DNA of 32,000 bases from Candidatus Saccharimonadota bacterium (GCA_041659445.1 JBAZYG010000001.1:270001-302000); one strand, 5' to 3'. Counted from the first letter of the stretch, positions 7,679 to 21,983 are shown. Notes: generated by a model not told the origin, from the sequence alone. Translations and numbers: made by a program.

Positions 7679-7700
7679 CAATAAAATCTGTTTTAATTAT

Positions 7701-7772
7701 GCCTCGGTAGTATAATGGCTAGTACACGAGCCTGTCGCGCTTGAGACCCGGGTTCGATTCCCGGTCGGGGCG
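7701..7772 (+). tRNA. tRNA-Asp (anticodon GUC), no encoded CCA
   Basis: Hand-folded cloverleaf:
- acceptor GCCTCGG / TCGGGGC, with two G-T pairs
- D stem GTAT / GTAC
- anticodon stem CGAGC / GCTTG with loop CTGTCGC, giving anticodon GTC
- T arm CCGGG-TTCGATT-CCCGG
- discriminator G at 7772
It is a GC-rich island in AT-rich DNA. Confidence 0.9.
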
Positions 7773-7773
7773 T
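7762..7773 (+). repeat. attL core: CGGTCGGGGCGT (last 11 nt of tRNA-Asp plus 1)
   Basis: Exact 12-nt copy of 26154-26165 in the same orientation. A nearby TTGGAATTTT (7783-7792) also recurs at 26179-26188. Confidence 0.6.
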
Positions 7774-7857
7774 CTGGTCTTTTTGGAATTTTACAGGGTG
7801 TCTATATGTTCAAAATTTGTCCAAATCCTATTTAATTAAATTAGCCGTGGGGGTTGT

Positions 7858-9012
7858 ATGAAAATAGACCCCTATGATCATAAGAAAAAGTATCTTTCAT
7901 GGAAATCATCAATTAATGGCAAAATTCCTGAAATTTCTGAACAGAATTCTCAAATCATTCTTGATTATGTTTTTGATATGGAACATGGACTTAATGTTTC
8001 AAACGTAAGCAAAAAAGGAGCAAGAGGCTATCCAAGAATGAATAATCTCAAGCAAAGAATAATTTTTTTAGTAAAATTATTTGAAGAAAAATATGATTTA
8101 AAAGATATTACTCAAGTTTCTGAAAGAACTCTCCATGATTTTTTTACAAAAATGAGAAATGGAGATATAAGAAGATTAGATGGACAAGTTTATCAATCTT
8201 CAGGAGATTATGTAAAAGTATTCAAAGCTTTTTGGCACTGGTATCAAAAATCAAGTAGAAAAAAAGGCATTGAAGTTTTTGATCTTACTATCGATTTGGA
8301 TGCAAGTAAAGAAAAGCCAAAATGGGTTTATTTAACAGAAGATCAAGTCAAAAGATTAGTAGATAATGCAAAATTTGATTATAAAGTTCTTATAATGTTT
8401 CTTTATGATTCTGGAATTCGATCCCCTACAGAATTAATGAATGTTAAAGTATCAGATTTTTATAACAATTTCAAGGAATTAAATATAAGAGATGAAATAA
8501 GTAAAACTTTTGGAAGAAGAATTAAACTAATGCTTTGTCCCGACTTAATAAAGAGGTATGTTGAAGAAAAAAAATTAAAAGAAGAAGATTATCTTTTTAC
8601 AACTCTTCATTCAAATATGAATAAATATCTTAAAAGATTATCTACAAGAATATTTGGAGATGCTATGAGCCCTGCTGGTCAGAGATATTCTGAGTTAACC
8701 TTGTATGACTTTAGACATTGCTCATGCTGTTATTGGCTTCCAAGATATAAATCAGAATCTGCATTGAAATTTAGATTCGGATGGAAAAAATCAGATAAAA
8801 TACATTATTATTCAGAAATGCTTGGGATGAGAGATACAATTAGTGATGAAGATTTGTTAGTAGATCTTACTAAAACAGAAATTGAAAAAAGATTGCTTAA
8901 ATCTGAAAATGAAAAAAATGTTTTACAAGAAAGAGTTGATGTTTTAGAAAAACAAATGAAAATTATAGCTGAATTAGTTAAAAAAGGTGTCTGGGTTGTG
9001 AGTGATGATTAA
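7858..9012 (+). CDS. tyrosine recombinase / integrase
   Basis: 384 aa. DSGIRSPTELMNVKVSDF is the Arg-I box. LYDFRHCSCCYW is the H-x-x-R box. WKKSDKIHYYSEMLG holds the candidate catalytic Tyr. The gene starts 86 nt after the tRNA. Confidence 0.85.
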   Translation: MKIDPYDHKKKYLSWKSSINGKIPEISEQNSQIILDYVFDMEHGLNVSNVSKKGARGYPRMNNLKQRIIFLVKLFEEKYDLKDITQVSERTLHDFFTKMRNGDIRRLDGQVYQSSGDYVKVFKAFWHWYQKSSRKKGIEVFDLTIDLDASKEKPKWVYLTEDQVKRLVDNAKFDYKVLIMFLYDSGIRSPTELMNVKVSDFYNNFKELNIRDEISKTFGRRIKLMLCPDLIKRYVEEKKLKEEDYLFTTLHSNMNKYLKRLSTRIFGDAMSPAGQRYSELTLYDFRHCSCCYWLPRYKSESALKFRFGWKKSDKIHYYSEMLGMRDTISDEDLLVDLTKTEIEKRLLKSENEKNVLQERVDVLEKQMKIIAELVKKGVWVVSDD

Positions 9013-9039: not shown

Positions 9040-9171
9040 TTAATCTCTTCCTTCATCAGCACCATCTTCAAAACCATCTTCGTAGATTTTATTCAAAACA
9101 GTTTCAACTTCTTCATCTGTTTTTGAATTCTTGATGGCTTTTTTGAATTTTTCAAGATATTTGTCGGTCAT
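9040..9171 (-). CDS. small acidic protein (43 aa), hypothetical
   Basis: Below the ORF-track cut-off. The ATG at 9171 is preceded by GGAGGT with a 5-nt spacer. Sequence: MTDKYLEKFKKAIKNSKTDEEVETVLNKIYEDGFEDGADEGRD. It overlaps the methyltransferase stop by 20 nt, suggesting translational coupling. Confidence 0.35.
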   Translation of the reverse strand: MTDKYLEKFKKAIKNSKTDEEVETVLNKIYEDGFEDGADEGRD

Positions 9172-9811
9172 TTTTACCTCCTGTTTTATTTAATTGATCA
9201 ATCCATCTTTTATCTAATTCTATTCCAATCCATTTTCTATTATTTTCTTTACAAGCAATACACGTAGATCCTGTTCCACAAAAAGGATCTAAAATTAAGT
9301 CTCCTTCTTTTGAACTATGAAGTATCATTTTTGTGATTAAATCAATTGGTTTTTCATGAGGGTGATTTTCTTTATTATGATTAATATGACTGCAAGTTTG
9401 AACATCTGAAAAATCTTTTAAATTATATTTTGGATTTCCTTTTTCTAAAACCAAAATTAATTCATATTGGTGTCTAAATGCCCAACCCAACCCAAAATTA
9501 TGTTTTTTCCAAACAATTAAATGTCTAATTTTAAAATTAGTATATCTTAAGATAAATTCAGTTAAAAAAGGATAATGTTTCCAATTTGTGAATAAGTAAA
9601 GAGAAGAATTTTTCTTTAAAACTCTATAACATTCAACTAACGCAGAGCAATTAATTAATGGGTTCTCGTTATTTTTAATTATTTTATTATTCCAACCATA
9701 AGCAACATTATCCCCATAAGGAGGATCTGTAATAATTAAATTAATAGAATTATTTGGAAATTTTTTTAAAATTTCTATGCAATCTCCATGGATAATTTTA
9801 TTTTCTTCCAT
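9152..9811 (-). CDS. DNA methyltransferase, beta-class (N6-adenine or N4-cytosine), no cognate endonuclease nearby
   Basis: Motif IV IITDPPYG is near the N-terminus and motif I LDPFCGTGSTCIA is near the C-terminus. This circular permutation is typical of beta-class amino-methyltransferases. Confidence 0.9.
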   Translation of the reverse strand: MEENKIIHGDCIEILKKFPNNSINLIITDPPYGDNVAYGWNNKIIKNNENPLINCSALVECYRVLKKNSSLYLFTNWKHYPFLTEFILRYTNFKIRHLIVWKKHNFGLGWAFRHQYELILVLEKGNPKYNLKDFSDVQTCSHINHNKENHPHEKPIDLITKMILHSSKEGDLILDPFCGTGSTCIACKENNRKWIGIELDKRWIDQLNKTGGKNDRQIS

Positions 9812-9980
9812 CTTTTAAAAGGGTGTCCAATTTTTGTTCAATTTTGTCTAATTGAATATTTTCCTGGAGTTTTAATCTGCAATATTCTGAAACAGTTATC
9901 ATTTTCTTTTTTGCATTTAGTTTAAGCTTTTCGAGAAATTCTGTTGTTATTACAATATGCAGATGTGCATTCATTGCCAT
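9798..9980 (-). CDS. ribbon-helix-helix (CopG-like) DNA-binding protein, putative controller of the methyltransferase
   Basis: 60 aa. HLHIVITTEFLEKLKLNAKKKMITVSEYCRLKL fits a strand-helix-helix layout. The ORF overlaps the methyltransferase start by 14 nt. Confidence 0.45.
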   Translation of the reverse strand: MAMNAHLHIVITTEFLEKLKLNAKKKMITVSEYCRLKLQENIQLDKIEQKLDTLLKDGRK

Positions 9981-10191
9981 TTTTATTTATTCTTTTTTCT
10001 AAAATTAAAATCAATTCTTTTAATTTTGAAATTATTTCTTCTCCAAGATCTTCAGAAACTTTTTCTTTCATAAAAAAATTATACAATTAAAATTTATAAT
10101 TAATAAGAAAAAAGTTGGTTATTTTTCACACTATTTTATGGTTACTTATTTTTTTCTGATTTAATTTATAACCAAGACATCTAGAAAAATC

Positions 10192-10353
10192 ATGGATAAA
10201 AGATGCATAATCTGCAATACTTTGATTGAAGAAGATGAAGATTTTTGTAAAACTTGTGTTGCAGTTTTGAGAAAAAAATATCCAAATAAGAAAAAATTGG
10301 AGGAAATCCTAAAATGGCACAAAAGCCAAGCAGAATTAAACAAAGAAGACTGA
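10192..10353 (+). CDS. small zinc-ribbon protein (53 aa), first gene of the transfer operon
   Basis: Below the track cut-off. ATG at 10192. MDKRCIICNTLIEEDEDFCKTCVAVLRKKY... carries CxxC-x12-CxxC. The ORF ends inside the next gene, whose ATG (10314) has a GGAGG upstream. Confidence 0.4.
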   Translation: MDKRCIICNTLIEEDEDFCKTCVAVLRKKYPNKKKLEEILKWHKSQAELNKED

Positions 10354-10655
10354 GAATAATTCCATTGTTAATTGTTTTAGCTTTAATGGTTATGCAAATA
10401 GGAATGGTTATTGCTGCAGACGAAGCTGATTTTGAGCAAGTTTTGCATCCTTTGACAACAATTTACAACTTAGTGAAATATGCAGCAACAATTATTGCAG
10501 GATTAGTCTTGCTTTTTTCAGGAATTACTTACATCACTAGTGGTTCAGATCCAGGAAAGCGTGAGAAAGCTAAGAATATGGCTATGTATGTTATAATCGG
10601 TCTTATTGTGATTTGGGCAGCACCTTTTGTGGTGGATTTAATTTTAGGAAACTAA
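10314..10655 (+). CDS. VirB2/TrbC/CedA1-like pilin candidate
   Basis: 113 aa. A basic leader plus hydrophobic segment ends in VIAAD, a signal-peptidase-like site. Two hydrophobic helices follow, joined by a short charged loop (TSGSDPGKREKAKN). This is the architecture of T4SS pilins. Confidence 0.5.
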   Translation: MAQKPSRIKQRRLRIIPLLIVLALMVMQIGMVIAADEADFEQVLHPLTTIYNLVKYAATIIAGLVLLFSGITYITSGSDPGKREKAKNMAMYVIIGLIVIWAAPFVVDLILGN

Positions 10656-10656
10656 A

Positions 10657-11040
10657 ATGAAAGGAAAGATTTTGTTTAATTTTTTATTTGCAGTTGCTTT
10701 TATTTTACCATTAGCAACTGCTTTTAATTGTACTGCATTAAATGGAGAGGAGCATAATTCTTGTATTTATATTGAAAATACAGATTGGTCTCAATCAGAC
10801 AAAGATTTAGTTATTCAAAATATTCTTGATTCAGGAGGGGTTTCACTTAATGGAGATTTTGAATCCATTTTTGATAAAGAAATAAATGATTCTATTAAAT
10901 TAAATAATATTGAGGAATCTGAATTAAAAATTGATAAAGAGAATAAGATATTTTTAATGAATTTTTCTTTAATTTCTTTGTTTGGATATTCTCTTTTCTC
11001 TTTTCTTAAAGGGTTTTATCTTAGATTCAAAAGAAAATGA
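10657..11040 (+). CDS. secreted/C-terminally anchored protein of the transfer module, hypothetical
   Basis: 127 aa. It has an N-terminal signal peptide (FLFAVAFILPLATAFN), an acidic Cys-containing ectodomain and a C-terminal TM helix. It starts 2 nt after the pilin stop and overlaps the next gene by 4 nt. Confidence 0.5.
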   Translation: MKGKILFNFLFAVAFILPLATAFNCTALNGEEHNSCIYIENTDWSQSDKDLVIQNILDSGGVSLNGDFESIFDKEINDSIKLNNIEESELKIDKENKIFLMNFSLISLFGYSLFSFLKGFYLRFKRK

Positions 11041-11858
11041 CTACTTGTGGAATTACTAATTTAGGTTCATGCTTAGTTGAAAAATTTTTTGAATTTATTG
11101 TTAATATATTAAACATGCCTGTTTCTCCTCTATTAAAATTAATAAACAATTTCATGATTGAACCTGTGAACATTAATCTTTTTGCAAGTACTTGGTCAAT
11201 AATTATTTACATTTTATCTTTATTTTATGGGATTTTTCTTTTAATTGTTGGATTTAAATTTTTAATTTCAGGACATTCTCCTGAAAAAAGAGAAGATGCT
11301 AAGAAAAATCTAGCCAACATTATAATAATGATGGTTTTAGTTCAAGCAAGTTTTTTTCTTTATGCTTTATGTTTAGATGTTGTTGCTTCAATGACTTCTG
11401 TGATTTTTAATTTAATTCCATCAGATTTCTTTTTAATTGCAACAGGAGGAATGGGAAATATTGGTTTAGATTTGGCTTTATTATTTCCTTATATTTTTAC
11501 CTTGTTAGCAACATTAATTTTTTTAGCATTAAGATATATTTGTGTTGGAGTTGGAGTTATTTTCTTTGCAATTGGAATTTTTCTTTATTTTTCAGGTTAT
11601 TTTAAATCATTTGGAAAATTAATTTTAAATTATTTAGGAGTTTTAATTTCTCTGCCTTTTATTTATTCAATTATTTTATTAGCATCATCTAAATTTTTAG
11701 AAATTAACACCTTTTCAGATGTTAAAATATTAGTTATGATTGGAGGATTTGGTCTTATTAATTTATTGACTATGTTTTTACTTTTATTTGTAATAGTTAA
11801 GGCTGCAAATTCAAAACCAGTAAATCAAATTGTAACGCTTGTAAAAGCAGTAGCATAA
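11037..11858 (+). CDS. polytopic membrane protein, VirB6/TrbL/CedA-like candidate
   Basis: 273 aa with about 6 TM helices. The position between the pilin and the VirB4 ATPase is typical for VirB6-type channel subunits. The first helical hairpin repeats the pilin loop motif (ISGHSPEKREDAKKN). Confidence 0.45.
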   Translation: MTTCGITNLGSCLVEKFFEFIVNILNMPVSPLLKLINNFMIEPVNINLFASTWSIIIYILSLFYGIFLLIVGFKFLISGHSPEKREDAKKNLANIIIMMVLVQASFFLYALCLDVVASMTSVIFNLIPSDFFLIATGGMGNIGLDLALLFPYIFTLLATLIFLALRYICVGVGVIFFAIGIFLYFSGYFKSFGKLILNYLGVLISLPFIYSIILLASSKFLEINTFSDVKILVMIGGFGLINLLTMFLLLFVIVKAANSKPVNQIVTLVKAVA

Positions 11859-11859
11859 A

Positions 11860-14778
11860 ATGTATGAAATACCGCAACAATTAGAATATAAAGAAAAAAT
11901 AGTCTTTGGATTAACTTTTCCACAATTAGCTTATGCTTTTGTATTTTTTCCTTTTGTATTTTCATTTTTGTTTAAAATAAATGCTAATATTTACACAAGA
12001 ATATTTTTAGCATTAATTCCAACACTTTTAGCTGTAGGATTTATGTTTTTTGATTTAAGTCAACATCTTAAAAATTGGTATTTTTGGTTAAAAACTCGAA
12101 AACTTAAAGAAGATAAATTAAAGAAAGTGTTAGAAATTGGAGAAATTAAAGATAATTTAATTCATTATAATAAAAAGAAAATTGCTGTTTTAAGAGTAGA
12201 ATCTTTAAATTTTTCAATAAAATCTCAAGGTGAACAAGAAGCAATAATGTTTTCATTTCAAAAATTCTTAAATTCAATTGACTTTCCAATACAAATTCTA
12301 ATGACTACTGAAACTTTGGATTTAGATATTTATCTTAAAAGTTTAGAGAAGAAATCATTAAATGAAAGAAATAAAGAAATTTTTAATTCTTATAAAGAGC
12401 ATATGCAGGATTTAATCAAACAAAATAGTGCAATGAATAGAAATTTTTATTTAGTAATTCCAGAATCTACAGATTTAAATATTCAAGTTAAACTTTGTGA
12501 AGAAAGGCTTCATAGTCTTAATCTTAAAACTTTTAGATTAAATGATGCTCAATTAAAAAGTATTTTTATTAAGATATTTAATGAAAATTCTAAGAATTTT
12601 CTTCCAAAAGAAATTAATAATTTTCCTGATTTTTTAGAGGTTGATAAAAAATTTCATAAAATAATTTATGCTCATGGATATCCTAGATCTGTTGAAAAAG
12701 GATTCTTAGATAAATTAATTAGTTGCTCTGGAAATTTTGATTTTTCTCTGCATATTATTCCTCAACCAATTGAAAAAACAATGATTTTATTAAATAGAGA
12801 GTTAAAAAAACAAAGAGCAGATCTTTATGCATCTAAACTAAAAAATCAATTTAATCCAAGTCTTGAAATAAAATATAAAGATACTAAAAATATTCTTGAA
12901 GATTTACAAAAAGGAAATGAAAAGCTGTTTAATATGGGTTTTTACATTAATTGTAGAGCAGATAGTTTAGATGAACTTAGATTATTAGTTAGAAAGATTG
13001 AATCAGAATTAAATTCTCTTTTAATTATTCCAAAGCAACCTAATTTTCAAATGATTCAAGGATTTAAATCATGCTTGCCTTTAGCTAAAGATTTTTTAAA
13101 AGTAACTAGAAATATAACAACCTCTGCTTTGTCTGCATTTTTTCCTTTTACTTCTTCTTTTTTTAAATTTGATGAAACAGGCATTTGGTTAGGATTAAAT
13201 AAAAACAATATTCCAATAATTAGAGATATTTTTAAATTATCAAATTCAAATGGAATTTGCTTAGCAAGTTCTGGAGCTGGAAAATCGTATATGGCTAAAT
13301 TGTTCATTACAAGGCATTTGTTAAACAATACAAAAGTTATGATTATTGATCCTCAAAGTGAATATAAAAATATAGTTTCAAAGTTTAATGGTCAAAGAAT
13401 TAATTTATCAAGAACTTCTGAAACAATGATTAATCCTCTTGATTTAATGGGGCATGATTATTCTGAAAAAAGGCTTTCTTTAATGGATTTAATGCCTGTA
13501 ATGTTAGGGCAATTAACAGAACCTCAAAAATCTTTTATTGATCAAGCTTTAACAGAAGCTTATGAAAGAAAAGGAATCTATATGAATGATAGGGCAAGTT
13601 GGGCAAATGAGCCCCCAATTTTGGGAGATGTCTTAAAAATCCTAGAAAAGATAGAGAAAAAAGCAATTAGCCTAGAAAAAACCACAATAAGGAGTTTAAT
13701 AAATCGTTTAAGATTATATGTTGATGGAGTTTTTTCTTTTTTAAACAGACATACAAATATTGATTTTAAAAATAATTTTGTATGCTTTGATATTGGAAAT
13801 ATGCCTAAACAAGTTAAGCCTACAATTATGTTTCTTGTTTTAGATTATGTTTATATGAAAATGAAAAGAGATCTTGAGAGAAAATTGCTGGTTATTGACG
13901 AAGCATGGACTTTACTTTCAAGAGCGGAAGAAGCATCTTATATTTTTGAAATTGTTAAGACTTGTAGAAAATTTAATATGGGGTTATTTTTAATTAATCA
14001 AGAAGTTGAAGGAATGCTAAATTCAGAAGCAGGAAGATCTGCTTTAGCAAATTCTTCATATACCATTTTGTTAAGGCAAAAACCTGCTGTAATTGAAAGT
14101 GTTCAAAAAGTATTTCATTTAAGTAATGTTGAAAGAATTGCTCTTTTAACTGCAGGAGTTGGAGAAGGAATTCTTTTAATGGAAGATGAGCATTCTGAAT
14201 TAAAAATAATTGCTTCAAAAGAAGAGCATAAGCAAATTACTACAAATGCTGACGAATTACTTGAAGCAGAATATGAAGAAAATTCGAAAAGTCAAAAGGT
14301 AAATATTAATGTTGATGAATTTCAGAGAGTTCATAAATCTAAAGATTTAACAAAAGAAGATAAAAAGTATTTATTAAAAAAAGGATTTAAAGAAGAATCT
14401 TTCAAAAGTCTTTCTTTAAATAAAAATGAAAATTATTTTGTTAAACCTAGATTTAATGAAACTTCTAAACATTTATTTGTGGTTTATGATATTAAAAATT
14501 ATTTTGAGAAAAAAGGGATTTCAGTAGAACTTTATGCAACAAAAAAACCAGATATTGTTTTTAATATTAAAAATAAAAAATTTGCAATTGAAGTTGAAAC
14601 TGGATCAATGTTAAATCAAAAGAAATTTTTTAAAGAAAAATTAAATTTACTAAATAAGAATTATGATAAATGGTTTTTTGTTGTAACAGACAGAAATAAA
14701 ACTAAATCTTATAAAAAATATGGAGAGTCAGTAGATTTAAGATATTTGAAACAGAGACTTTCTAAAATCCGTCGATAA
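11860..14778 (+). CDS. VirB4/TrbE-family conjugation ATPase with N-terminal VirB3/PrgI-like membrane segment and C-terminal PD-(D/E)xK-like domain
   Basis: 972 aa.
- N-terminus: KEKIVFGLTFPQLAY plus two TM helices, which is PrgI/VirB3-like.
- Walker A: GICLASSGAGKSYMAKL.
- Other ATPase-core segments: VMIIDPQSEY and GLFLINQ.
- Walker B: LLVIDEAWTLL.
- C-terminal ~120 aa: KKPDIVFNIKNKKFAIEVETGS. Confidence 0.85.
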   Translation: MYEIPQQLEYKEKIVFGLTFPQLAYAFVFFPFVFSFLFKINANIYTRIFLALIPTLLAVGFMFFDLSQHLKNWYFWLKTRKLKEDKLKKVLEIGEIKDNLIHYNKKKIAVLRVESLNFSIKSQGEQEAIMFSFQKFLNSIDFPIQILMTTETLDLDIYLKSLEKKSLNERNKEIFNSYKEHMQDLIKQNSAMNRNFYLVIPESTDLNIQVKLCEERLHSLNLKTFRLNDAQLKSIFIKIFNENSKNFLPKEINNFPDFLEVDKKFHKIIYAHGYPRSVEKGFLDKLISCSGNFDFSLHIIPQPIEKTMILLNRELKKQRADLYASKLKNQFNPSLEIKYKDTKNILEDLQKGNEKLFNMGFYINCRADSLDELRLLVRKIESELNSLLIIPKQPNFQMIQGFKSCLPLAKDFLKVTRNITTSALSAFFPFTSSFFKFDETGIWLGLNKNNIPIIRDIFKLSNSNGICLASSGAGKSYMAKLFITRHLLNNTKVMIIDPQSEYKNIVSKFNGQRINLSRTSETMINPLDLMGHDYSEKRLSLMDLMPVMLGQLTEPQKSFIDQALTEAYERKGIYMNDRASWANEPPILGDVLKILEKIEKKAISLEKTTIRSLINRLRLYVDGVFSFLNRHTNIDFKNNFVCFDIGNMPKQVKPTIMFLVLDYVYMKMKRDLERKLLVIDEAWTLLSRAEEASYIFEIVKTCRKFNMGLFLINQEVEGMLNSEAGRSALANSSYTILLRQKPAVIESVQKVFHLSNVERIALLTAGVGEGILLMEDEHSELKIIASKEEHKQITTNADELLEAEYEENSKSQKVNINVDEFQRVHKSKDLTKEDKKYLLKKGFKEESFKSLSLNKNENYFVKPRFNETSKHLFVVYDIKNYFEKKGISVELYATKKPDIVFNIKNKKFAIEVETGSMLNQKKFFKEKLNLLNKNYDKWFFVVTDRNKTKSYKKYGESVDLRYLKQRLSKIRR

Positions 14779-14831: not shown

Positions 14832-16283
14832 CTAAATAATCTTTTCTAATTTTTCAAATTCAGATAATAATTCTTTAACTTCTTTCTTTGCTTCTTCAAT
14901 AATAACTTTGCTCTGTCTGTGATCAACTTCTTTTTCCTTTTCTTTTTTATATCTGTTAATTGAAAGATCCCAGTCTTTTTCTTTAATTTCTTCAATTGGA
15001 ACAAAGAAATGTTTCTCAAATCTGCTTTTATTGTCTTCCTTATTTCTTTTTTCAAATCTTTCTAAAATATCTGGAATATCATTTTTATCTGGTTGTTCGG
15101 TTCTCTTATCATCTAAACTAAATCCGTCCGCTTCCATATTGTAAAACCAGACTTTTTCTGTTGGCTCTCCTTTTGTAAAGTAAAGAACTGCAGTTGATAC
15201 TCCTGCGTAGGGTTTGAATATTCCAGAAGGCATAGAAATAATAGCATCAAGACGGCACTTTTCTAATAAAATTTTTTTAATTGATTTGTGAGCATTTGAA
15301 TTACCAAATAAAACACCTTCTGGAACTATTACTGTACATCTTCCCCCAACTGAAAGAGAATTATACATAAGTTCTAAGAAAAGTAATTCTGTTTTACTTG
15401 TACTTATTGTAAGTTCATCTGATTTCTCACTTTCATTTATAGAGCCTTTGAAAGGAGGATTTGCTAAAACTAAATCGTAAACCCCATTTTCATTATATCT
15501 TTTTGATAGAGTATCTTCTCCAGTAATCTTAGGGTTTGTTATTCCATGCATCATCAAATTCATTACTGCAATTCTAACCATAGTTCTGTCAATATCATAC
15601 CCATAAAGAGACTCTTCATCAAGAATTTTCTTTTTTTCTGGAGTTAATGTGCTTACATTATTTTTTTGATTTGTTTTTAAAATATATTCGTAAGCATTTA
15701 CTAAGAACCCTGCTGTTCCACAAGCTGGATCTAAAATTCTATCTCCAAATTCTGGTCTTGCCAAATCAACCATCATCTTAATTATATGTCTTGGGGTTCG
15801 AAATTGTCCATTTTTTCCTGCAGTTTGAAGTTCAGAAAGAAGATATTCATAAATGTCTCCTTGAGTATCCTGGTTTTGTTCTTTAATATGTAAGTCATTA
15901 ATTATATTGACTGCTTCAATTAAAAGAGAGGCTGTTGGAAGAGAAAAACTTGCATCCTTCATATATCTGGCATAAGAGGAGTTTTCTTCACCCAAATTTC
16001 TCATAAAAGGAAAGACAACATCTCGAACATGAGCTAAAATTTTATCAGAGGAATATTCGCTCCAAACAGACCATTTACAATTTTCATGACCTTCAAAAAT
16101 AGATTTGTATTTAGTCCCCTTAAGGACTGCGTTTTGTTCTTCTAAAACATCCTTGTCCTCTAATTTTCTCATAAAAATTAAATAAGATATTTGTTCAATT
16201 GCTTGAAGAGGATTACTAATTCCTCCGCTCCAAAATTTATCCCATAACTTTCTTATTTTTGATTTAAATTCTGCATGTAACAT
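14832..16283 (-). CDS. hsdM: type I restriction-modification system methyltransferase subunit
   Basis: 483 aa. HsdM_N-like N-terminus (LWDKFWSGGISNPLQAIEQISYLIFMRKLED), motif I ILDPACGTAGFL and motif IV LANPPFKGS. Confidence 0.92.
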   Translation of the reverse strand: MLHAEFKSKIRKLWDKFWSGGISNPLQAIEQISYLIFMRKLEDKDVLEEQNAVLKGTKYKSIFEGHENCKWSVWSEYSSDKILAHVRDVVFPFMRNLGEENSSYARYMKDASFSLPTASLLIEAVNIINDLHIKEQNQDTQGDIYEYLLSELQTAGKNGQFRTPRHIIKMMVDLARPEFGDRILDPACGTAGFLVNAYEYILKTNQKNNVSTLTPEKKKILDEESLYGYDIDRTMVRIAVMNLMMHGITNPKITGEDTLSKRYNENGVYDLVLANPPFKGSINESEKSDELTISTSKTELLFLELMYNSLSVGGRCTVIVPEGVLFGNSNAHKSIKKILLEKCRLDAIISMPSGIFKPYAGVSTAVLYFTKGEPTEKVWFYNMEADGFSLDDKRTEQPDKNDIPDILERFEKRNKEDNKSRFEKHFFVPIEEIKEKDWDLSINRYKKEKEKEVDHRQSKVIIEEAKKEVKELLSEFEKLEKII

Positions 16284-16285
16284 AT

Positions 16286-17371
16286 TTATTGTTTTTCGTT
16301 ATCCAAGGGTTTATTTTTAATATTATTAGCTATTAAATCTACTTGTTTTTGAGAAAGATAATGAGATTTATAAAACAGCTTATGGCTATCGGTCATCAAA
16401 TTTAATTTATAATGATCTTCTGGGTGAATTAATCCAAAAATATGACCTATCTCATGAGCCAAATTTCTTCCTGTTAAATCCCTAAAAGTTAAATTAAGAT
16501 AAGATATTTTGTCATGCCTAAATATTGCGAAAGAGTGTCCACACAAACTACCTCTACCTGCGTTCTCACCACCACTAACAAAGATTATACTTTCATTAGG
16601 ACTATTATTTGTTATCCTATTTATTAAATCCATATACCCTTCTTCCCAGCATTCTGTTTCATTGTTTCCTTTGGAATATAAGATTGCTCTCTCTTTGTCA
16701 CTTAAATTAATATTCACATAATAAGTTTTATTGATTAAAACAGAGATATTATATTTGTTCCAAATTTTATCTGCTTCAAAGACATATTTATCTAAATCCT
16801 GCTTATTTATTTCATTATTTATAACATAAAAATTAAATTTTGTATCAAGATGATCTAAATTTATTCCCTTAGGTTCAGAAGGTAATGAGATATAAATGAC
16901 TAAACCAATCATAACTAGGGTTACTAAAACTAAAAATAATGAAATTGTATTAATATTTTCTTTTGGACTTTTTTGCAACATAAATAATATAAAAATAATT
17001 AGTGAACTAAATAAAACTCCTAATATTGTGATCAGGGGGTGTAATAATTTAAATGAATTTAACAATAATGAAATAAGTGAGAAGATTATTATAGAAAGGA
17101 AAAACAAATAACAGCTTACCAACAATTTTGGATCAAATTTTCTAAAGTTTATTTTTTTAAAAAATCCAATAAAATTCTTATTCCAATTATATCTTTTACC
17201 TGCCCAAACAAAAAAAGTATAAATCAAGACTAAAAACAATCCTAATAAAAAGATATATAACGCTGAACGCAAACCACTTTTAATTTCCAATCCATAATAT
17301 AAAACTATTCCCGCGATTATTCCTATAATCAAATTATCCCAATATTTTTCAAATATTTCTGTGAACTTCAT
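16286..17371 (-). CDS. membrane-anchored metzincin-type zinc metalloprotease (putative)
   Basis: 361 aa. There are about 5 N-terminal TM helices and then a soluble domain ending in LAHEIGHIFGLIHPEDHYKLNLM. That is HExxHxxGxxH plus a possible Met-turn. The gene is wedged between hsdS (1-nt gap) and hsdM (2-nt gap). Confidence 0.6.
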   Translation of the reverse strand: MKFTEIFEKYWDNLIIGIIAGIVLYYGLEIKSGLRSALYIFLLGLFLVLIYTFFVWAGKRYNWNKNFIGFFKKINFRKFDPKLLVSCYLFFLSIIIFSLISLLLNSFKLLHPLITILGVLFSSLIIFILFMLQKSPKENINTISLFLVLVTLVMIGLVIYISLPSEPKGINLDHLDTKFNFYVINNEINKQDLDKYVFEADKIWNKYNISVLINKTYYVNINLSDKERAILYSKGNNETECWEEGYMDLINRITNNSPNESIIFVSGGENAGRGSLCGHSFAIFRHDKISYLNLTFRDLTGRNLAHEIGHIFGLIHPEDHYKLNLMTDSHKLFYKSHYLSQKQVDLIANNIKNKPLDNEKQ

Positions 17372-17372
17372 T

Positions 17373-18524
17373 TTACAAATCCCCCTTAAATCCTTTACTC
17401 ACAAGAGAATTAAATAATTCTTCGGAGTTTTGTTTAGTTTTGTTTAGTTTTTTTTTCATTTTTTCAATTTGTTCAACTATCTTTGCAAATTTTTGCTGAA
17501 GGAAGATAGGCGGAATAGGGATCTCAAAATTTCCTAAATCTCGTGGACTTAGTCTTGGGAGATTTGCACCAACACATAAAGAATTTGCTCGGTTTATATA
17601 AGTCTCTCGTCTTAGTAAATGAGCAATATAATATTTATTTGATTTACCTTTTTCTGGTCTGAGAGGAATTATATCTGTACTACAAACACCATTAAAATTA
17701 GGCAAAGCAATTTTATTTAGATAGGGTCTCAGTTTACCATAAAGGATACATTCATCATCAAAAAGAAATTTTGTACTCTTTAATTTTTGAGCTTGTGCAT
17801 CCAACTTTTCCAATATTCTTCCAGTTTGAGATTCTATATGTTCTAAACCAAGATAAAAATAATCTTTATTTATTTTTTCTGGAGAGATAATTTTTCTGAA
17901 TAGTGGACAGACTTCTTTTAATTTTATAATCTTAAATTTATTTTTTTCTTTCAAAAACATTTCATAAAAAAGAGTATTTAAGTATTCATCAAATAAGTCC
18001 TCAATTTTTTCTCCTCTCTGATTCAATTCCCAAGAATCATCTAAAATATTAACAACTCTTTCTTGTTCTTTTATGTCTAATTTTCCATTAGAGAATGGAA
18101 CAAAAATTTTTCTTTTTTGATATACAGAAAGATAATATCGTTTGTGAGTTGAAAAATTCAATTGGATACCTTTCATCATTAGAAAAACAAATTTTATATT
18201 TACATCTTTAGATTTTGGTGTTAATAATTTCATTGCACTTGATTTTACTTTAAATTTAAAATCAACAAATTTAGTGTCTGTGGTGAAATCATCAAAAAGA
18301 ATTACTGGAGGTTTTTCATAAATTCCATTTTTCTCTTCAGTATATCCTAAAATAAATGATTTGTTTGCAGTTAAAACTGGAACTGAAATTTTTGTTTTCT
18401 CTTTAAGTATTTCGCTTTGAACAATATAGTCTCCTGGTTGCTCATAATCCAAAAGTTCTCCTATTTCAATTTCTTTCCATTCAATTTGGTTAGTTTGTGT
18501 TTGTTTCATTTTAATTTTTTTCAA
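17373..18524 (-). CDS. hsdS: type I restriction-modification system specificity subunit
   Basis: 383 aa. It has two target-recognition halves, each followed by a helical conserved region (…EERVVNILDDSWELNQRGEKIEDLFDEYLNTLFYEMF… and …QQKFAKIVEQIEKMKKKLNKTKQNSEELFNSLVSKGF). The gene sits within the hsd operon. Confidence 0.85.
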   Translation of the reverse strand: MKKIKMKQTQTNQIEWKEIEIGELLDYEQPGDYIVQSEILKEKTKISVPVLTANKSFILGYTEEKNGIYEKPPVILFDDFTTDTKFVDFKFKVKSSAMKLLTPKSKDVNIKFVFLMMKGIQLNFSTHKRYYLSVYQKRKIFVPFSNGKLDIKEQERVVNILDDSWELNQRGEKIEDLFDEYLNTLFYEMFLKEKNKFKIIKLKEVCPLFRKIISPEKINKDYFYLGLEHIESQTGRILEKLDAQAQKLKSTKFLFDDECILYGKLRPYLNKIALPNFNGVCSTDIIPLRPEKGKSNKYYIAHLLRRETYINRANSLCVGANLPRLSPRDLGNFEIPIPPIFLQQKFAKIVEQIEKMKKKLNKTKQNSEELFNSLVSKGFKGDL

Positions 18525-20688: not shown

Positions 20689-21349
20689 CTTCTTTTACCT
20701 CCTCAGTATAGCTATATTTTCTTTCAGGTTTCGCTGAAATCTTTTTTATTTTTTCTTTTGAAATAATCCAAATATCAGAACCATGAACTAATGGGTGACC
20801 TACGCAATATAAATTATCCACTGCAATATTCCCTAAACACCTGTTGCAAAAATCATAAAATCTTTCTCCCATATCCGAAAATTTAAGATTGTTTATATTA
20901 GTTAATTCTTCTTTTATTTCTCCAAGACGAGTATTCTCATTAAATGTTCCAATAAAATTTTTACAATTAACCGAATTTTTTATCTCCTTTGTTTCAAATT
21001 TATTATTTTTGTCTTTCCTTATCTGAAATCCTTTTTGAGAAGATTTGTCTATAACTAAAAATTGTTCATCTGTAATCGTGAGAAAAATATTTTTTAGTTT
21101 AATCTCAAGATATTTTTTAAAATCCTCAAAGTTGAGATATTGTTTTGCATCATCAATTATATCGCTTAAAATTTTTTCATCTCCAGAACCAACAAAAAAT
21201 AAATTATGATTAATTCCTTTTATTTTTTCAATACTATCTGAAAATACTGAGATATCGCTTTGAGATTCTGCTTTAAATTTAGAAACAGCTTTTTTGTCTG
21301 CAACTATAACCCAAGCGTCTTTTATTGGAAATGTAAATGCGAGAGTCAT
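20681..21349 (-). CDS. proteasome-beta/HslV-like Ntn-hydrolase candidate (Thr directly after Met)
   Basis: 222 aa. MTLAFTFPIKDAWVIVADKKAV...IEKIKGINHNLFFVGSGDEKI parallels the proteasome-beta/HslV N-terminus: T1, Asp/Glu17 and K-I-x-x-I...[AS]-G-x-x-x-D. Asp falls at mature position 17. This is a motif-level resemblance only. Confidence 0.4.
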   Translation of the reverse strand: MTLAFTFPIKDAWVIVADKKAVSKFKAESQSDISVFSDSIEKIKGINHNLFFVGSGDEKILSDIIDDAKQYLNFEDFKKYLEIKLKNIFLTITDEQFLVIDKSSQKGFQIRKDKNNKFETKEIKNSVNCKNFIGTFNENTRLGEIKEELTNINNLKFSDMGERFYDFCNRCLGNIAVDNLYCVGHPLVHGSDIWIISKEKIKKISAKPERKYSYTEEVKEDD

Positions 21350-21813
21350 TTTTTCTTCCTCTTTGATTTAGATAATAAATTGAAATTATGATTAATCATT
21401 AAATCCAAGAATATAAAATAAATTATCATAAAAATATGAACCCCAAATAAAATCTTTGAATAATTGTATGATATAACTGTTGAATAAATAAATTCTACAA
21501 TAAAAATAATACTTATAACTGCAAAAAATTTCCATGAATAAATATAATCAAATTCTTTTCCAGCATCATTTATTTGGTCTTTCCAATTTCTTAACAAAGG
21601 TTTGTTTTTATCTTTCTGTTTAAGTCTATTTTTCATCATTACCTTTATCTTTCCTTCTAAATCTGTTTTGTAAACTTCCATAATAGCAAGAATTGCTAAT
21701 CCTGCAAAGAATAACCACATAGGACTTTTTGTCAAATAAAAAGTAATCAACGGCAAAATAAATAATGCCTGATGAATCTTTTTCTTATCTGTGAAAAAAT
21801 CAATTATTTTCAT
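21346..21813 (-). CDS. small integral membrane protein (~4 TM), hypothetical
   Basis: 155 aa. Two hydrophobic hairpins are separated by a basic loop (MMKNRLKQKDKNKPLLRNWKDQ). ATGA overlaps occur at both ends. Confidence 0.5.
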   Translation of the reverse strand: MKIIDFFTDKKKIHQALFILPLITFYLTKSPMWLFFAGLAILAIMEVYKTDLEGKIKVMMKNRLKQKDKNKPLLRNWKDQINDAGKEFDYIYSWKFFAVISIIFIVEFIYSTVISYNYSKILFGVHIFMIIYFIFLDLMINHNFNLLSKSKRKKK

Positions 21814-21983
21814 TCTTCCTCCCCCAATCCAGTTTCTTTTCTGATCATCTCTCGGAGTTTTGTATTTATCTTTTTGCCTTCCTGGTCACAAAGTTTTTTG
21901 AAAAAAAGGAATTCACTCTTATACAATCTTGTAGAAACAATTTTCCTCTCTTCCCCGCTTAAATCATGATTTTTTAAAACCAT
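21810..21983 (-). CDS. ribbon-helix-helix (CopG-like) regulator, first gene of the cassette-hsdS-hsdM operon
   Basis: Below the track cut-off (57 aa): MVLKNHDLSGEERKIVSTRLYKSEFLFFKKLCDQEGKKINTKLREMIRKETGLGEEE. It has a strand-helix-helix layout. Its TGA overlaps the ATG of the next gene (ATGA). Confidence 0.5.
   Translation of the reverse strand: MVLKNHDLSGEERKIVSTRLYKSEFLFFKKLCDQEGKKINTKLREMIRKETGLGEEE

What the first reader, a model, noticed from the sequence alone, without database searches (positions are those of the whole stretch)
10192..14778. Minimal T4SS / Ced-like DNA-transfer module without a recognisable relaxase or coupling protein
Five tightly packed genes encode:
- a CxxC-CxxC zinc ribbon
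- a VirB2/CedA1-like two-helix pilin with a cleavable leader
- a secreted, anchored protein
- a VirB6/CedA-like polytopic protein
- a VirB3-VirB4 fusion ATPase

This composition parallels the crenarchaeal Ced DNA-import system and the minimal Gram-positive conjugation core. I see no VirD4/TraG-type coupling ATPase, no relaxase and no replication protein anywhere in the element. It is therefore an open question how DNA is processed and recruited, and whether the system exports or imports DNA.
Basis: partly seen in the sequence, partly recalled or inferred. Interest (0 to 1): 0.75.

Follow-up and report, generated by a model that had tools for sequence, protein, structure and literature searches.

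The report
Conjugation-like DNA-transfer island in tiny archaeon
An 18.4-kb mobile island inserted next to a tRNA gene of a DPANN archaeon carries a stripped-down conjugation-type secretion machine, and its motor ATPase is fused to a nuclease-like domain that may replace the missing DNA-nicking and DNA-recruiting proteins.

Summary
Window 10192-14778 encodes five tightly packed genes:
- a CxxC-CxxC zinc ribbon;
- a VirB2/TrbC-type pilin (Pfam T4SS_pilin 1.4e-15);
- a signal-peptide protein with a C-terminal anchor;
- a protein with about 5-6 transmembrane segments whose N-terminus is itself pilin-like;
- a 972-aa VirB4 ATPase with a two-helix VirB3/PrgI-like N-terminus.

The ATPase is a genuine VirB4. 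Its best matches are the Gram-positive and Mycoplasma conjugation families, and nothing resembles HerA or FtsK.

The module lies in an integrative element of about 18.4 kb (7762-26165). A 12-nt repeat of the tRNA-Asp 3' end bounds it, and a tyrosine integrase sits at one end. The host is a Pacearchaeota (DPANN) archaeon. Seventy-three related loci in Pace-, Woese- and Nanoarchaeota genomes keep the order pilin, polytopic protein, VirB4, often with the integrase, a methylase, ribbon-helix-helix proteins and variable defence cargo.

No coupling protein or relaxase was found in the window or in any related locus.

The last ~155 residues of VirB4 form a conserved PD-(D/E)xK nuclease-like domain (E867, D898, E911, E913). 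It is present in 70 of the 73 related loci and was not covered in any plasmid VirB4 match.

Best reading: an archaeal integrative conjugative element with a minimal T4SS and a motor-fused nuclease. This is a new variant of a known kind. A specific kinship to Ced is unsupported.

The parts
7700..7774 (+). tRNA-Asp (GTC), the integration target. Its last 12 nt (7762-7773, CGGTCGGGGCGT) form the attL core.
   Evidence: ARAGORN and Rfam tRNA at 59.6 bits. The 12-mer occurs exactly twice in the window, against 0 expected.
7858..9012 (+). Tyrosine recombinase/integrase (384 aa) at the left end of the element.
   Evidence: Pfam Phage_integrase 30.2 bits, cut-off 27.1. Homologues at 63-68% identity occupy the same position in L001, L003, L005, L010 and L012, next to tRNA-Asp in four of them.
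9152..9811 (-). Orphan N6/N4 DNA methyltransferase, a conserved core gene of the element.
   Evidence: Pfam N6_N4_Mtase 1.2e-36 and PADLOC MTase_II. Present in 20 related loci at about 76-83% identity in the closest ones.
9798..9980 (-). 60-aa ribbon-helix-helix protein, weakly NikA-like.
   Evidence: Pfam NikA-like E 6.9e-4 (20.2 bits, below the cut-off of 27), plus RHH_3 and CopG. Conserved in 16 loci.
9922..10086 (-). 54-aa conserved small ORF of unknown function.
   Evidence: blastp hits in 10 loci; alignment.
10192..10353 (+). 53-aa CxxC-CxxC zinc-ribbon protein, the first gene of the transfer operon.
   Evidence: Sequence. Weak DZR_2 and DUF2116 hits. Found in 15 loci, and in L001 fused to the C-terminus of a DNA methylase.
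10314..10655 (+). VirB2/TrbC-type pilin precursor (113 aa): leader plus two hydrophobic helices joined by a basic loop.
   Evidence: Pfam T4SS_pilin 1.4e-15 and TrbC 2e-9, both above cut-off. NCBIfam Mbov_0395 pilin-like 1.6e-5. Hydropathy. Found in 48 loci.
10657..11040 (+). 127-aa exported protein anchored at its C-terminus. This is the short form of a family that is 440-470 aa in many related loci, and in distant loci is fused to the polytopic protein.
   Evidence: Signal-like N-terminus and C-terminal TM segment. Long and fused variants are seen. No family hit.
11037..11858 (+). 273-aa polytopic membrane protein in the position of VirB6. Its N-terminal hairpin is homologous to the pilin.
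   Evidence: About 5-6 TM segments. T4SS_pilin 5.7e-7 at residues 55-102. blastp of the pilin against this family gives 1e-8 to 1e-11. Found in 52 loci. No VirB6/TrbL match.
11860..14310 (+). VirB3-like two-TM N-terminus (residues ~1-67) fused to the VirB4 N-domain and ATPase (residues ~100-800).
   Evidence: Pfam P-loop_TraG, DUF87, AAA_10, TraC_F_IV and PrgI. NCBIfam CD1110 and Mycoplasma-ICE VirB4. PDB 4AG5 8.5e-34. TM segments at 20-40 and 48-66.
14311..14778 (+). C-terminal ~155-residue domain of the same protein: a small beta-alpha-beta-beta lobe plus a PD-(D/E)xK (restriction-endonuclease-fold) core with conserved E867, H871, D898, E911, E913 and K927.
   Evidence: Pfam CoiA_nuc 23.8 bits (cut-off 20.3) when scanned alone. 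Of 34 members, 15 hit CoiA_nuc and 3 hit AHJR-like. AF2 model pLDDT 94.8 with an alpha-beta-beta-beta-alpha-beta core. Foldseek hits are Cdn1, Hjc, YaeQ, the R2 endonuclease domain, Bax1, OkrAI, PspGI and XPF/Mus81. Invariant residues. Present in 70 of the 73 related loci.
14832..24811 (-). Variable cargo: a type I restriction-modification system (hsdM, hsdS, hsdR) interrupted by unrelated genes. These are a 361-aa TM+HExxH protein, a 725-aa protein, and 222-, 155- and 57-aa ORFs.
   Evidence: Pfam N6_Mtase, HsdM_N, Methylase_S, ResIII, HSDR_N and EcoEI_R_C. The inserted genes have no homologues in the related loci.
24886..25098 (-). 70-aa ORF whose sequence looks ribbon-helix-helix-like, conserved near the right end.
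   Evidence: Alignment with L003, L014 and L032. The RHH assignment is by eye only; the only family scan run on it (PHROGs) found nothing.
25229..25504 (+). 91-aa conserved protein of unknown function marking the right end of the element. After excision it would lie just upstream of the integrase, across the att junction.
   Evidence: Found in 14 loci at the distal end. It has 166 homologues and no Pfam hit. The AF2 model is unusable at pLDDT 56.8.
26154..26165 (+). attR core: the second copy of CGGTCGGGGCGT, followed by a diverged copy of the sequence downstream of the tRNA.
   Evidence: The analogous element in L003 has a 15-nt repeat of its own tRNA-Asp 3' end.

Best explanation
The five genes are the transfer module of an ~18.4-kb integrative conjugative-type element (window ~7762-26165) inserted at the 3' end of tRNA-Asp in a Pacearchaeota (DPANN) genome. 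The element belongs to a family spread across Pace-, Woese- and Nanoarchaeota.

Shown:
- The element has direct-repeat att sites, a tyrosine integrase, a conserved core and swappable defence cargo.
- The core is integrase, methylase, RHH, zinc ribbon, pilin, exported protein, polytopic protein, VirB3-VirB4 and p91.
- The ATPase is a VirB4 closest to the monoderm (MPF_FATA-type) conjugation families.
- The pilin is VirB2/TrbC-type.
- VirB4 carries a conserved C-terminal PD-(D/E)xK-fold domain with an acidic E...D...ExE constellation.

Inferred mechanism:
1. The integrase excises the element as a circle.
2. The pilin is processed by signal peptidase and assembled, by the membrane-anchored VirB3-VirB4 hexamer together with the polytopic protein, into a pilus or channel. 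The exported anchored protein acts as an envelope or adhesion component.
3. Because there is no coupling ATPase and no relaxase, the cytoplasmic nuclease-like domain at the VirB4 C-terminus binds and nicks or cuts the element DNA at the channel entrance, possibly guided by the RHH and zinc-ribbon proteins. VirB4 then drives the DNA out to a neighbouring cell.
4. The orphan methylase protects the incoming DNA.
For: Identity of the parts: VirB4, pilin, PrgI-like N-terminus; topologies.

Mobile-element context:
- The 12-nt tRNA-end repeat occurs exactly twice, with 0 expected.
- L003 has the same architecture with its own 15-nt repeat.
- tRNA-Asp lies next to the integrase in L003, L005, L010 and L012.
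- Two to four or more copies per genome, and tandem arrays (L061/L007).
- Variable RM and defence cargo.
- Element genes are more conserved than host SerRS between the window and L012: 60-76% against 48%.
- No virion genes.

Synteny: of 47 loci with at least 3 kb upstream of VirB4, 41 have the polytopic gene upstream, 37 have the pilin, and 36 show the order pilin, polytopic protein, VirB4.

No T4CP or relaxase. In one search, phmmer with Enterococcus VirD4, relaxase, MobC and PcfB gave no hits, while the VirB4 control gave 74.

Nuclease-like domain. No plasmid VirB4 alignment extends past about residue 817.

Published context: archaeal conjugative plasmids and ICEs have no recognisable relaxase (PMC9905601; PMC6563490).
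Against: - No transfer, excision or pilus has been observed. No empty attB site or circular junction was found; the two other contigs of the same strain both carry the element.
- Nuclease activity is inferred only from fold and conserved residues. Foldseek E-values are weak (2.5e-3 at best) and the canonical lysine of (D/E)xK is a glutamate. From my own knowledge, that arrangement occurs in BamHI-type enzymes, but it is also compatible with an inactive DNA-binding module.
- A T4CP or relaxase could be encoded elsewhere in the 486-kb contig, outside the window.
- In the analogous ultrasmall bacteria (Patescibacteria), a relaxase-less MPF_FATA-type T4SS is thought to have been co-opted for host interaction rather than conjugation (PMC12102498).
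- VirB6 homology of the polytopic protein was not demonstrated.
Confidence: 0.55

Rival explanations
1. The module is a host-interaction or uptake apparatus rather than a conjugation machine. The DPANN episymbiont uses the pilus and channel to attach to, or draw macromolecules from, its host cell, including DNA that the VirB4-fused nuclease would cut or degrade for recombination or nucleotide salvage. This would work like Ced or ComB import. The mobile element merely carries it as an adaptive trait.
For: - There is no coupling protein and no relaxase, as in the Patescibacteria T4SS, which is proposed to serve epibiotic growth rather than conjugation (PMC12102498).
- T4SS-like tubes have been seen at a Patescibacteria-host interface and linked to macromolecule uptake (bioRxiv 10.64898/2026.06.21.733656).
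- The best Pfam match of the C-terminal domain is the nuclease domain of the competence protein CoiA.
- The Ced and Ted systems import DNA with VirB2-like pili (PMC9905601).
- The exported protein is highly variable in size (127 to ~470 aa), as expected for a host-contact component.
Against: - In the window and in L003 the module lies inside att-bounded elements, and an integrase was seen in 19 of the 47 loci that have upstream flank, together with multi-copy and tandem arrangements. That is the signature of self-transmissible elements rather than of a core symbiosis system.
- The Patescibacteria system, by contrast, is chromosomal and close to single-copy (2,474 VirB4 homologues in 2,417 genomes).
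- No sequence-level link to Ced/Ted pilins was found.
Confidence: 0.25
2. The element is a decaying or defective remnant of a conjugative element that has lost its coupling protein and relaxase. Alternatively it is an element mobilised in trans by functions encoded elsewhere. In either case the present five-gene set is not sufficient for transfer.
For: - No att repeat was found for L005 or L010 within the 1.5 kb searched.
- Some loci show a split VirB4 ORF (L006, L007, L068).
- Only 32 kb of the 486-kb contig was inspected for trans-acting genes.
Against: - The same reduced gene set, with intact full-length ORFs, recurs at 45-81% identity in 73 loci from many species. Hundreds of further homologues exist (844, 383 and 166 for VirB4, the polytopic protein and p91). 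This indicates purifying selection on exactly this composition.
- None of the related loci carries a T4CP or a relaxase either.
Confidence: 0.1
3. The island is a provirus or other non-conjugative element, and the VirB4-like protein is a HerA/FtsK-type packaging or pumping ATPase.
For: NCBI annotates the protein only as 'DUF87 domain-containing', and DUF87 is the HerA central domain.
Against: - The only significant PDB match is VirB4.
- The best NCBIfam matches are conjugal VirB4 families over nearly the full length.
- A VirB2-type pilin lies next to it.
- There are no capsid, terminase or other PHROG hits.
Confidence: 0.02

Closest known systems
MPF_FATA-type conjugative T4SS of monoderm bacteria (C. 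difficile CTn/CD1110-family elements, pCF10/pIP501-like plasmids, Mycoplasma ICEs)
   Same: - VirB4 scores best against conju_CD1110 (3.8e-94) and against the Mycoplasma-ICE VirB4 (1.1e-88, including the N-terminal membrane part).
- The pilin, and the N-terminus of the polytopic protein, hit the Mycoplasma Mbov_0395 pilin-like family.
- The best plasmid relatives are Firmicute CD1110-family VirB4s.
- A Pontibacillus plasmid has the same order: pilin-like, small protein, large hypothetical protein, VirB4.
   Different: - It lacks the VirD4-like coupling protein, the relaxase and accessory proteins, the PrgI as a separate gene, and the cell-wall hydrolase seen in, for example, pEfmO_03.
- VirB3 is fused to VirB4.
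- VirB4 carries a C-terminal PD-(D/E)xK-like domain that no plasmid alignment covered.
- The host is an archaeon, and integration is by a tyrosine recombinase at a tRNA gene.
Patescibacteria (CPR) chromosomal T4SS (PMC12102498)
   Same: - It occurs in an ultrasmall episymbiont lineage.
- VirB4 has MPF_FATA affinity.
- It has VirB2-like pilins of Pfam family PF18895.
- Relaxase is generally absent.
   Different: - The CPR system is chromosomal and close to single-copy (2,474 homologues in 2,417 genomes), sometimes near dnaA, and no VirB3-VirB4 fusions were found.
- Here the module lies within integrase/att-bounded, multi-copy elements, VirB3 is fused, and a nuclease-like domain is appended.
Crenarchaeal Ced and Ted DNA-import systems (PMC9905601)
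   Same: - It is an archaeal, minimal set: a small two-helix VirB2-like pilin, a polytopic membrane protein and a VirB4-family ATPase.
- It has no relaxase and no VirD4.
   Different: - No sequence evidence of a specific relationship was obtainable: no Ced profiles or sequences were on hand, and the pilin does not match the solved CedA1 or TedC chains.
- Ced is a chromosomal, UV-induced cellular system, not a tRNA-integrating element with an integrase.
- I know of no nuclease fusion in CedB; this rests on my own knowledge and was not tested.
Archaeal conjugative plasmids of Sulfolobus and thaumarchaeal ICEs (PMC6563490)
   Same: - These are archaeal integrative or conjugative elements without a recognisable relaxase.
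- They have VirB4, VirB6-like and VirB3-like components.
- A TFIIB homologue lies next to the T4SS genes, as seen here in the more distant loci L038-L040, L055, L056 and L062.
   Different: - Those elements carry a VirD4/TraG partner ATPase, and often TadC, FlaI and PilT components, and they are larger.
- The DPANN family has VirB4 only, plus the fused nuclease-like domain.

Membership tests
VirB4/TraC/TrbE family of T4SS ATPases | VirB4-type C-terminal P-loop ATPase domain, distinct from HerA, FtsK and VirD4 | tested here: met
   PDB 4AG5 VirB4 at 8.5e-34 is the only significant hit. Pfam P-loop_TraG 1.2e-24. NCBIfam VirB4 families score up to 3.8e-94.
VirB4/TraC/TrbE family of T4SS ATPases | VirB4-type N-terminal domain preceding the ATPase | tested here: met
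   conju_CD1110 aligns residues 241-775 and the Mycoplasma VirB4 profile aligns residues 4-793. The TraC_F_IV hit at 295-409 is weak. The full-protein NCBIfam scores are just below (316 vs 325) or well below the equivalog cut-offs, so the protein is a family member but not an equivalog of either.
VirB2/TrbC conjugative pilins | Profile match above the curated threshold, with a leader plus two hydrophobic helices separated by a short basic loop | tested here: met
   T4SS_pilin 57.6 bits against 26.6, and TrbC 38.0 against 27.9. Hydropathy.
VirB2/TrbC conjugative pilins | Assembles into a lipid-bound helical filament | not testable with these tools
   No multimer modelling was available, and there is no sequence match to solved pilus subunits.
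VirB3/PrgI | Small two-TM protein, or N-terminal fusion to VirB4, matching VirB3/PrgI profiles | tested here: inconclusive
   PrgI E 1.7e-4, 22.5 bits, below the cut-off of 27. PF12666 is precomputed on many homologues. There are two TM segments at residues 20-66. The Mycoplasma VirB4 profile covers the region from residue 4.
VirB6/TrbL/PrgH polytopic channel proteins | Sequence or profile homology to VirB6/TrbL/PrgH | tested here: not met
   No TrbL/VirB6 hit in Pfam or NCBIfam. The PF19590 label precomputed on 6 of the 120 listed homologues was not reproduced. hhalign against the Pontibacillus neighbour gave 0.1% probability.
VirB6/TrbL/PrgH polytopic channel proteins | Polytopic protein (5 or more TM segments) encoded next to VirB4 in the T4SS operon | tested here: met
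   About 5-6 TM segments. It lies upstream of VirB4 on the same strand (within 6 kb) in 41 of 47 loci.
Integrative and conjugative elements (ICE) | Integrase plus flanking direct repeats (att sites) at a specific target | tested here: met
   Integrase. The 12-nt repeat of the tRNA-Asp 3' end lies at 7762 and 26154. Related elements sit at tRNA-Asp.
Integrative and conjugative elements (ICE) | Complete conjugation set: T4SS, type IV coupling protein and relaxase/oriT | tested here: not met
   The T4SS core is present. T4CP and relaxase are absent from the window and from 73 related loci. This matches what is reported for other archaeal conjugative elements regarding the relaxase.
Integrative and conjugative elements (ICE) | Demonstrated excision and intercellular transfer | not testable with these tools
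   No empty site or circular junction was found.
Ced/Ted archaeal DNA-import systems | Orthology of the ATPase to CedB, and of the membrane proteins to CedA, CedA1, CedA2 or TedC | not testable with these tools
   No Ced/Ted profiles or sequences are in the available libraries. The pilin gives no hit to solved CedA1 or TedC chains.
Ced/Ted archaeal DNA-import systems | Chromosomal cellular system not linked to a mobile element | tested here: not met
   The module lies inside an integrase- and att-bounded element and is multi-copy in some genomes.
PD-(D/E)xK nuclease superfamily (C-terminal domain of VirB4) | alpha-beta-beta-beta-alpha-beta core with acidic residues on alpha1, at the start of beta2 and on beta3 | tested here: met
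   AF2 model at pLDDT 94.8: H52-67, E72-74, E82-86, E89-96, H104-117, E120-125. Invariant E50, D81, E94 and E96, which are E867, D898, E911 and E913 in the full protein. Foldseek hits are almost all PD-(D/E)xK enzymes. CoiA_nuc scores above the gathering score.
PD-(D/E)xK nuclease superfamily (C-terminal domain of VirB4) | Canonical (D/E)xK lysine, and demonstrated nuclease activity | tested here: inconclusive
   The motif is ExE, not ExK. A nearly invariant K927 lies on the next helix. Activity cannot be tested here.

The most novel reading that the evidence does not exclude
In this DPANN element family the T4SS motor does the DNA processing itself. The PD-(D/E)xK domain fused to the C-terminus of VirB4 nicks or linearises the excised element at the mouth of the channel and hands it to the ATPase. 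One polypeptide would thus replace both the relaxase and the type IV coupling protein. This would be a relaxase-independent conjugation mechanism, and a concrete answer to how archaeal conjugative elements without relaxases mobilise DNA.
Probability: 0.25. Interest if true: 0.85.

Novelty: new variant of a known kind. Interest (0 to 1): 0.62.

Why it matters
How archaeal conjugative elements prepare and recruit DNA is an open question, because no archaeal relaxase is known (PMC9905601, PMC6563490). This family offers an unusually small and testable system: four membrane or exported proteins and one ATPase, with a candidate nuclease physically attached to the motor and no coupling protein.

The family is abundant in DPANN archaea. 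There are hundreds of homologues, and some genomes carry several copies. These organisms have tiny genomes and live attached to other cells. The element could therefore be a main route of gene flow, notably of restriction-modification and other defence cargo, among them or between them and their hosts.

The family also gives an archaeal counterpart to the relaxase-less T4SS of Patescibacteria. That makes it possible to ask whether such systems move DNA, feed the symbiont, or do both.

Tried and rejected
- HerA/FtsK or viral packaging ATPase: rejected. The only significant PDB hit is VirB4 and there are no PHROG hits.
- Longer tRNA-derived att repeat: a 27-nt probe with up to 3 mismatches and a repeat search with seed 12 and minimum length 16 found nothing. 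A targeted 10-mer comparison of the two ends then found the 12-nt core, which was confirmed.
I rebuilt it from database proteins.
- A profile of the C-terminal domain against PDB sequences gave only chance hits such as ubiquitin and YhcN. The fold search was what proved informative.
- p91 (91 aa, right end): no Pfam, NCBIfam, PADLOC or PHROG hit. The AF2 model has pLDDT 56.8, so I did not search with it. Its function stays unknown.
- VirB6 homology of the 273-aa protein: there is no profile hit. The precomputed PF19590 label on a few homologues was not reproduced at E<=0.1. hhalign against the 779-aa Pontibacillus neighbour was negative.
- Pilin against solved pilins by sequence: nothing.
- Empty integration site: the two other contigs encoding the identical sulfotransferase also carry the element.
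- Relaxase or T4CP candidates among recurrent neighbour families (f8-f14, f20, f21, f28, f31, f56, f59, f62, f80-f82, f88, f99). By inspection these look like regulators (Lrp/AsnC-like, TFIIB-like), a reverse transcriptase, Fic, Cas4-like and DUF2779-like nucleases, radical SAM, OLD/UvrD/SNF2-type defence proteins and MoxR/vWA. They were read by eye only, not scanned. phmmer with Enterococcus VirD4, relaxase, MobC and PcfB found none.
- Literature: I found no paper in the searchable library that describes this DPANN element family or a VirB4-nuclease fusion. Subscription-only papers were not searchable.

Full report
**Origin and layout of the window**

The sequence has about 25% G+C. The VirB4-like protein is identical to a protein of a 'Candidatus Pacearchaeota archaeon' MAG on a 486-kb contig.

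Housekeeping genes occupy the left part: ribosomal protein S10, a Na+/H+ exchanger, SerRS and a sulfotransferase. A tRNA-Asp lies at 7700-7774 and is followed directly by a tyrosine integrase at 7858-9012. After the integrase come:

| Coordinates | Strand | Gene |
|---|---|---|
| 9152-9811 | - | N6/N4 DNA methylase |
| 9798-9980 | - | 60-aa ribbon-helix-helix protein, weakly NikA-like (E 6.9e-4) |
| 9922-10086 | - | 54-aa ORF |
| 10192-14778 | + | the five genes of the finding |
| 14832-24811 | - | type I restriction-modification system interrupted by unrelated genes |
| 24886-25098 | - | 70-aa ORF (RHH-like by eye) |
| 25229-25504 | + | conserved 91-aa gene |
| 25512-25976 | - | 154-aa ORF |

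**Check of the observation**

All five ORFs are real and tightly packed.

- The 53-aa protein has two CxxC pairs and weak zinc-ribbon hits.
- The 113-aa protein matches Pfam T4SS_pilin (57.6 bits against a cut-off of 26.6) and TrbC/VirB2 (38.0 against 27.9). It also matches the Mycoplasma-ICE pilin-like family. Hydropathy shows a leader and two hydrophobic helices.
- The 127-aa protein has a signal-like N-terminus and a C-terminal anchor, and matches no family.
- The 273-aa protein has about 5-6 TM segments. Its only significant similarity is a pilin-like hairpin at residues 55-102 (blastp of the pilin against this family gives 1e-8 to 1e-11). No VirB6/TrbL homology was found.
- The 972-aa protein is a VirB4. 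Pfam gives P-loop_TraG, DUF87 and AAA_10. The only significant PDB sequence match is the Thermoanaerobacter VirB4 4AG5 (8.5e-34). The best NCBIfam matches are conju_CD1110 (3.8e-94) and the Mycoplasma-ICE VirB4 (1.1e-88, aligned from residue 4). F-type TraC, VirB4/CagE, Bacteroidetes TraG and TrbE follow at a distance.
- The two N-terminal TM segments of VirB4 and a sub-threshold PrgI hit (PF12666 is precomputed on many homologues) support a VirB3-like fusion.

**The module is part of a bounded mobile element**

The last 12 nt of the tRNA-Asp plus one base (CGGTCGGGGCGT, 7762-7773) recur at 26154-26165 in direct orientation. These are the only two copies in 32 kb, against none in 100 shuffles. 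The sequences that follow the two copies are also similar. This sets the element at about 7762-26165, or 18.4 kb.

A related element in L003 has a 15-nt repeat of its own tRNA-Asp 3' end on both sides of the same gene set. tRNA-Asp also precedes the integrase in L005, L010 and L012.

**A family of such elements**

A scan of one genome per species returned 73 loci. By record title they come from Pace-, Woese- and Nanoarchaeota or unclassified archaeal MAGs, apart from eleven records titled 'uncultured Methanosarcinales' and one titled 'Bacteroides'.

My ORF calling and clustering show a recurrent order: integrase, optional cargo, methylase, RHH, zinc ribbon, pilin, exported protein (either ~125 aa or ~460 aa), polytopic protein, VirB4, variable cargo, p91.

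Among the 47 loci with at least 3 kb upstream of VirB4:
- 41 have the polytopic gene upstream;
- 37 have the pilin;
- 36 show the full order;
- 19 include an integrase within the fetched stretch.

Some genomes hold two to four or more copies, including tandem arrays in which p91 of one element abuts the integrase of the next (L061/L007).

The cargo differs from element to element. It includes type I RM systems and, by inspection, reverse transcriptase, Fic, OLD/UvrD/SNF2-type proteins and radical-SAM genes.

Between the window and L012 the host SerRS is 48% identical. VirB4, the integrase and the methylase are 60%, 63% and 76% identical. That fits horizontal spread.

No virion-type genes were detected.

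**Missing and present DNA-processing functions**

No coupling ATPase, relaxase or replication initiator was found in any ORF of the element by the family scans run on them. The four smallest ORFs (43-70 aa) had at most a PHROGs scan and are too small to be either protein.

As a direct control I took the VirD4-like protein, the relaxase, MobC and PcfB from the Enterococcus faecium plasmid pEfmO_03. I searched them with phmmer against all 4,635 six-frame ORFs of the window and the 73 loci. None hit below 1e-3, while the plasmid's VirB4 hit 74 ORFs.

What the element does have:
- the integrase and its att sites;
- the RHH protein, the RHH-like 70-aa ORF and the zinc ribbon;

**The nuclease-like domain on VirB4**

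Residues ~818-972 of VirB4 lie beyond the region that aligns to bacterial VirB4s. The 4AG5 alignment ends at residue 794, and no plasmid match extends past about 817.

This tail is present in 70 of the 73 related loci, including those only ~45% identical overall. It also occurs as a separate 115-aa ORF in L072.

Scanned alone, it matches Pfam CoiA_nuc above the gathering score (23.8 against 20.3). Of 34 family members, 15 hit CoiA_nuc and 3 hit the AHJR-like REase family. Scattered weaker hits go to other restriction-endonuclease-fold families.

An AlphaFold2 model built on 34 sequences is confident (pLDDT 94.8). It shows a small beta-alpha-beta-beta lobe followed by the alpha-beta-beta-beta-alpha-beta core typical of PD-(D/E)xK enzymes.

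Foldseek against the PDB returns, with weak E-values (2.5e-3 to 0.1) but high probabilities, almost only PD-(D/E)xK nucleases. These are Cdn1, archaeal Hjc, YaeQ, the R2 endonuclease domain, Bax1, OkrAI, PspGI and XPF/Mus81.

The conserved residues fall where the catalytic residues of that fold lie:
- E867 and H871 on helix 1;
- P897-D898 at the start of strand 2;
- E911-x-E913 on strand 3;
- K927 on the next helix.

From my own knowledge, an ExE motif in place of ExK is found in BamHI-type enzymes; OkrAI, a BamHI isoschizomer, is among the structural hits. That comparison was not tested here.

A profile search of 1.84 billion representative proteins found 705 clusters with this domain. The best 150 look like VirB4 C-termini, gene fragments or short stand-alone forms.

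**Interpretation**

The firm part is that this is the T4SS module of a tRNA-integrating mobile element family of DPANN archaea. Its VirB4 and pilin are nearest to the monoderm (MPF_FATA-type) conjugation systems.

The mechanism is inferred. The integrase excises the element. The VirB3-VirB4 motor, the polytopic protein and the exported protein assemble the pilus or channel. The cytoplasmic nuclease-like domain on VirB4, perhaps guided by the RHH and zinc-ribbon proteins, processes and recruits the DNA, taking over the roles of relaxase and coupling protein.

In the excised circle, p91 would sit just upstream of the integrase across the att junction. This follows from the gene order. The function of p91 remains unknown, because its model was unusable.

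The main rival reading is that the apparatus serves host contact or nucleic-acid uptake. That is what has been proposed for the relaxase-less T4SS of Patescibacteria and shown for Ced DNA import. The element context argues against this as the sole role but does not exclude it.

**Comparison with the literature**

Published archaeal conjugative plasmids and thaumarchaeal ICEs also lack relaxases, but they retain a VirD4/TraG partner. The Patescibacteria survey found no VirB3-VirB4 fusions.

In the searchable library I found no description of this DPANN element family or of a VirB4-nuclease fusion.

I therefore rate it a new variant of a known kind: an archaeal ICE with a minimal MPF_FATA-like T4SS. 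Its potentially important twist is the motor-fused nuclease, and that remains to be tested.

Noticed in passing
window 14832-24811 (- strand): The type I RM operon (hsdM, hsdS, hsdR) is interrupted by five genes with no homologues in the 73 related loci. They are a 361-aa protein with ~5 TM segments and a C-terminal HEIGH metalloprotease motif, a 725-aa protein whose C-terminus has a D...EVK motif that looks like PD-(D/E)xK, and 222-, 155- and 57-aa ORFs. None matched Pfam, PADLOC, NCBIfam or PHROGs. This may be an uncharacterised defence add-on.
   Followed up: partly
L061 and L007 (same contig JAGVXH010000003, ~22 kb apart); also L017/L066, JAUYGA010000x (3 loci), JAHJDQ010000x (4 or more loci): Several DPANN genomes carry multiple copies of the element. 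In L061 the right-end genes (f8, p91) of one copy are followed directly by two integrase genes and the next copy. That suggests tandem accretion at one att site.
   Followed up: partly
L001 7401-8489 (+): In this close relative the zinc-ribbon sequence is the C-terminal tail of a 362-aa N6/N4-type DNA methylase rather than a free-standing 53-aa protein. This hints that the ribbon is a DNA- or methylase-associated module.
   Followed up: no
L038, L039, L040, L055, L056, L062 (genes just downstream of VirB4): More distant members of the family encode a TFIIB-like protein (zinc ribbon plus cyclin-like repeats, ~260 aa) and an ~87-aa partner right after VirB4. The closer members instead have an Lrp/AsnC-like tandem-HTH protein next to p91. 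TFIIB next to archaeal T4SS genes has been noted before (PMC6563490).
   Followed up: no
L002-L073, gene between pilin and polytopic protein; L038, L040, L050, L054, L056, L062, L063, L071: The exported protein comes in a ~125-aa and a ~440-470-aa form with the same N-terminal Cys motif and C-terminal anchor. In distant loci the long form is fused to the polytopic protein (677-704 aa). This points to a functional unit with a variable surface-exposed domain.
   Followed up: partly
L019, L039, L040, L043, L048, L050, L054, L057, L059, L070, L071; P0019: Records titled 'uncultured Bacteroides sp.', 'uncultured Methanosarcinales archaeon' and 'Methanococcoides sp. SA1' carry this DPANN-type VirB4 at 45-71% identity. 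These may be mis-binned or mislabelled DPANN contigs, or possibly transfers into host lineages.
   Followed up: no
L003 12933-14045, plus L020, L027, L032, L036, L048, L071: A reverse transcriptase (retron/group II-like, ~370-550 aa) recurs as cargo near VirB4 in several elements.
   Followed up: no
L006, L007, L037, L041, L043, L046, L048, L061: In these loci the VirB3-like N-terminus (~100-140 aa) is a separate ORF overlapping the start of the rest of VirB4. This is either a real split gene or a frameshift in the assemblies.
   Followed up: no
window 9040-9171 (-): A 43-aa ORF between the integrase and the methylase is conserved in four related loci (75% identical in L003).
   Followed up: no
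L076 (Pontibacillus sp. plasmid NZ_CP062975, 351801-358115): The best plasmid relative of the VirB4 sits in a cluster with the same order (Mbov_0395-type pilin, small protein, 779-aa hypothetical protein, VirB4, peptidoglycan endopeptidase). The cluster lies beside flagellar genes on a replicon typed non-mobilizable, and no relaxase or T4CP is annotated within 9 kb.
   Followed up: no
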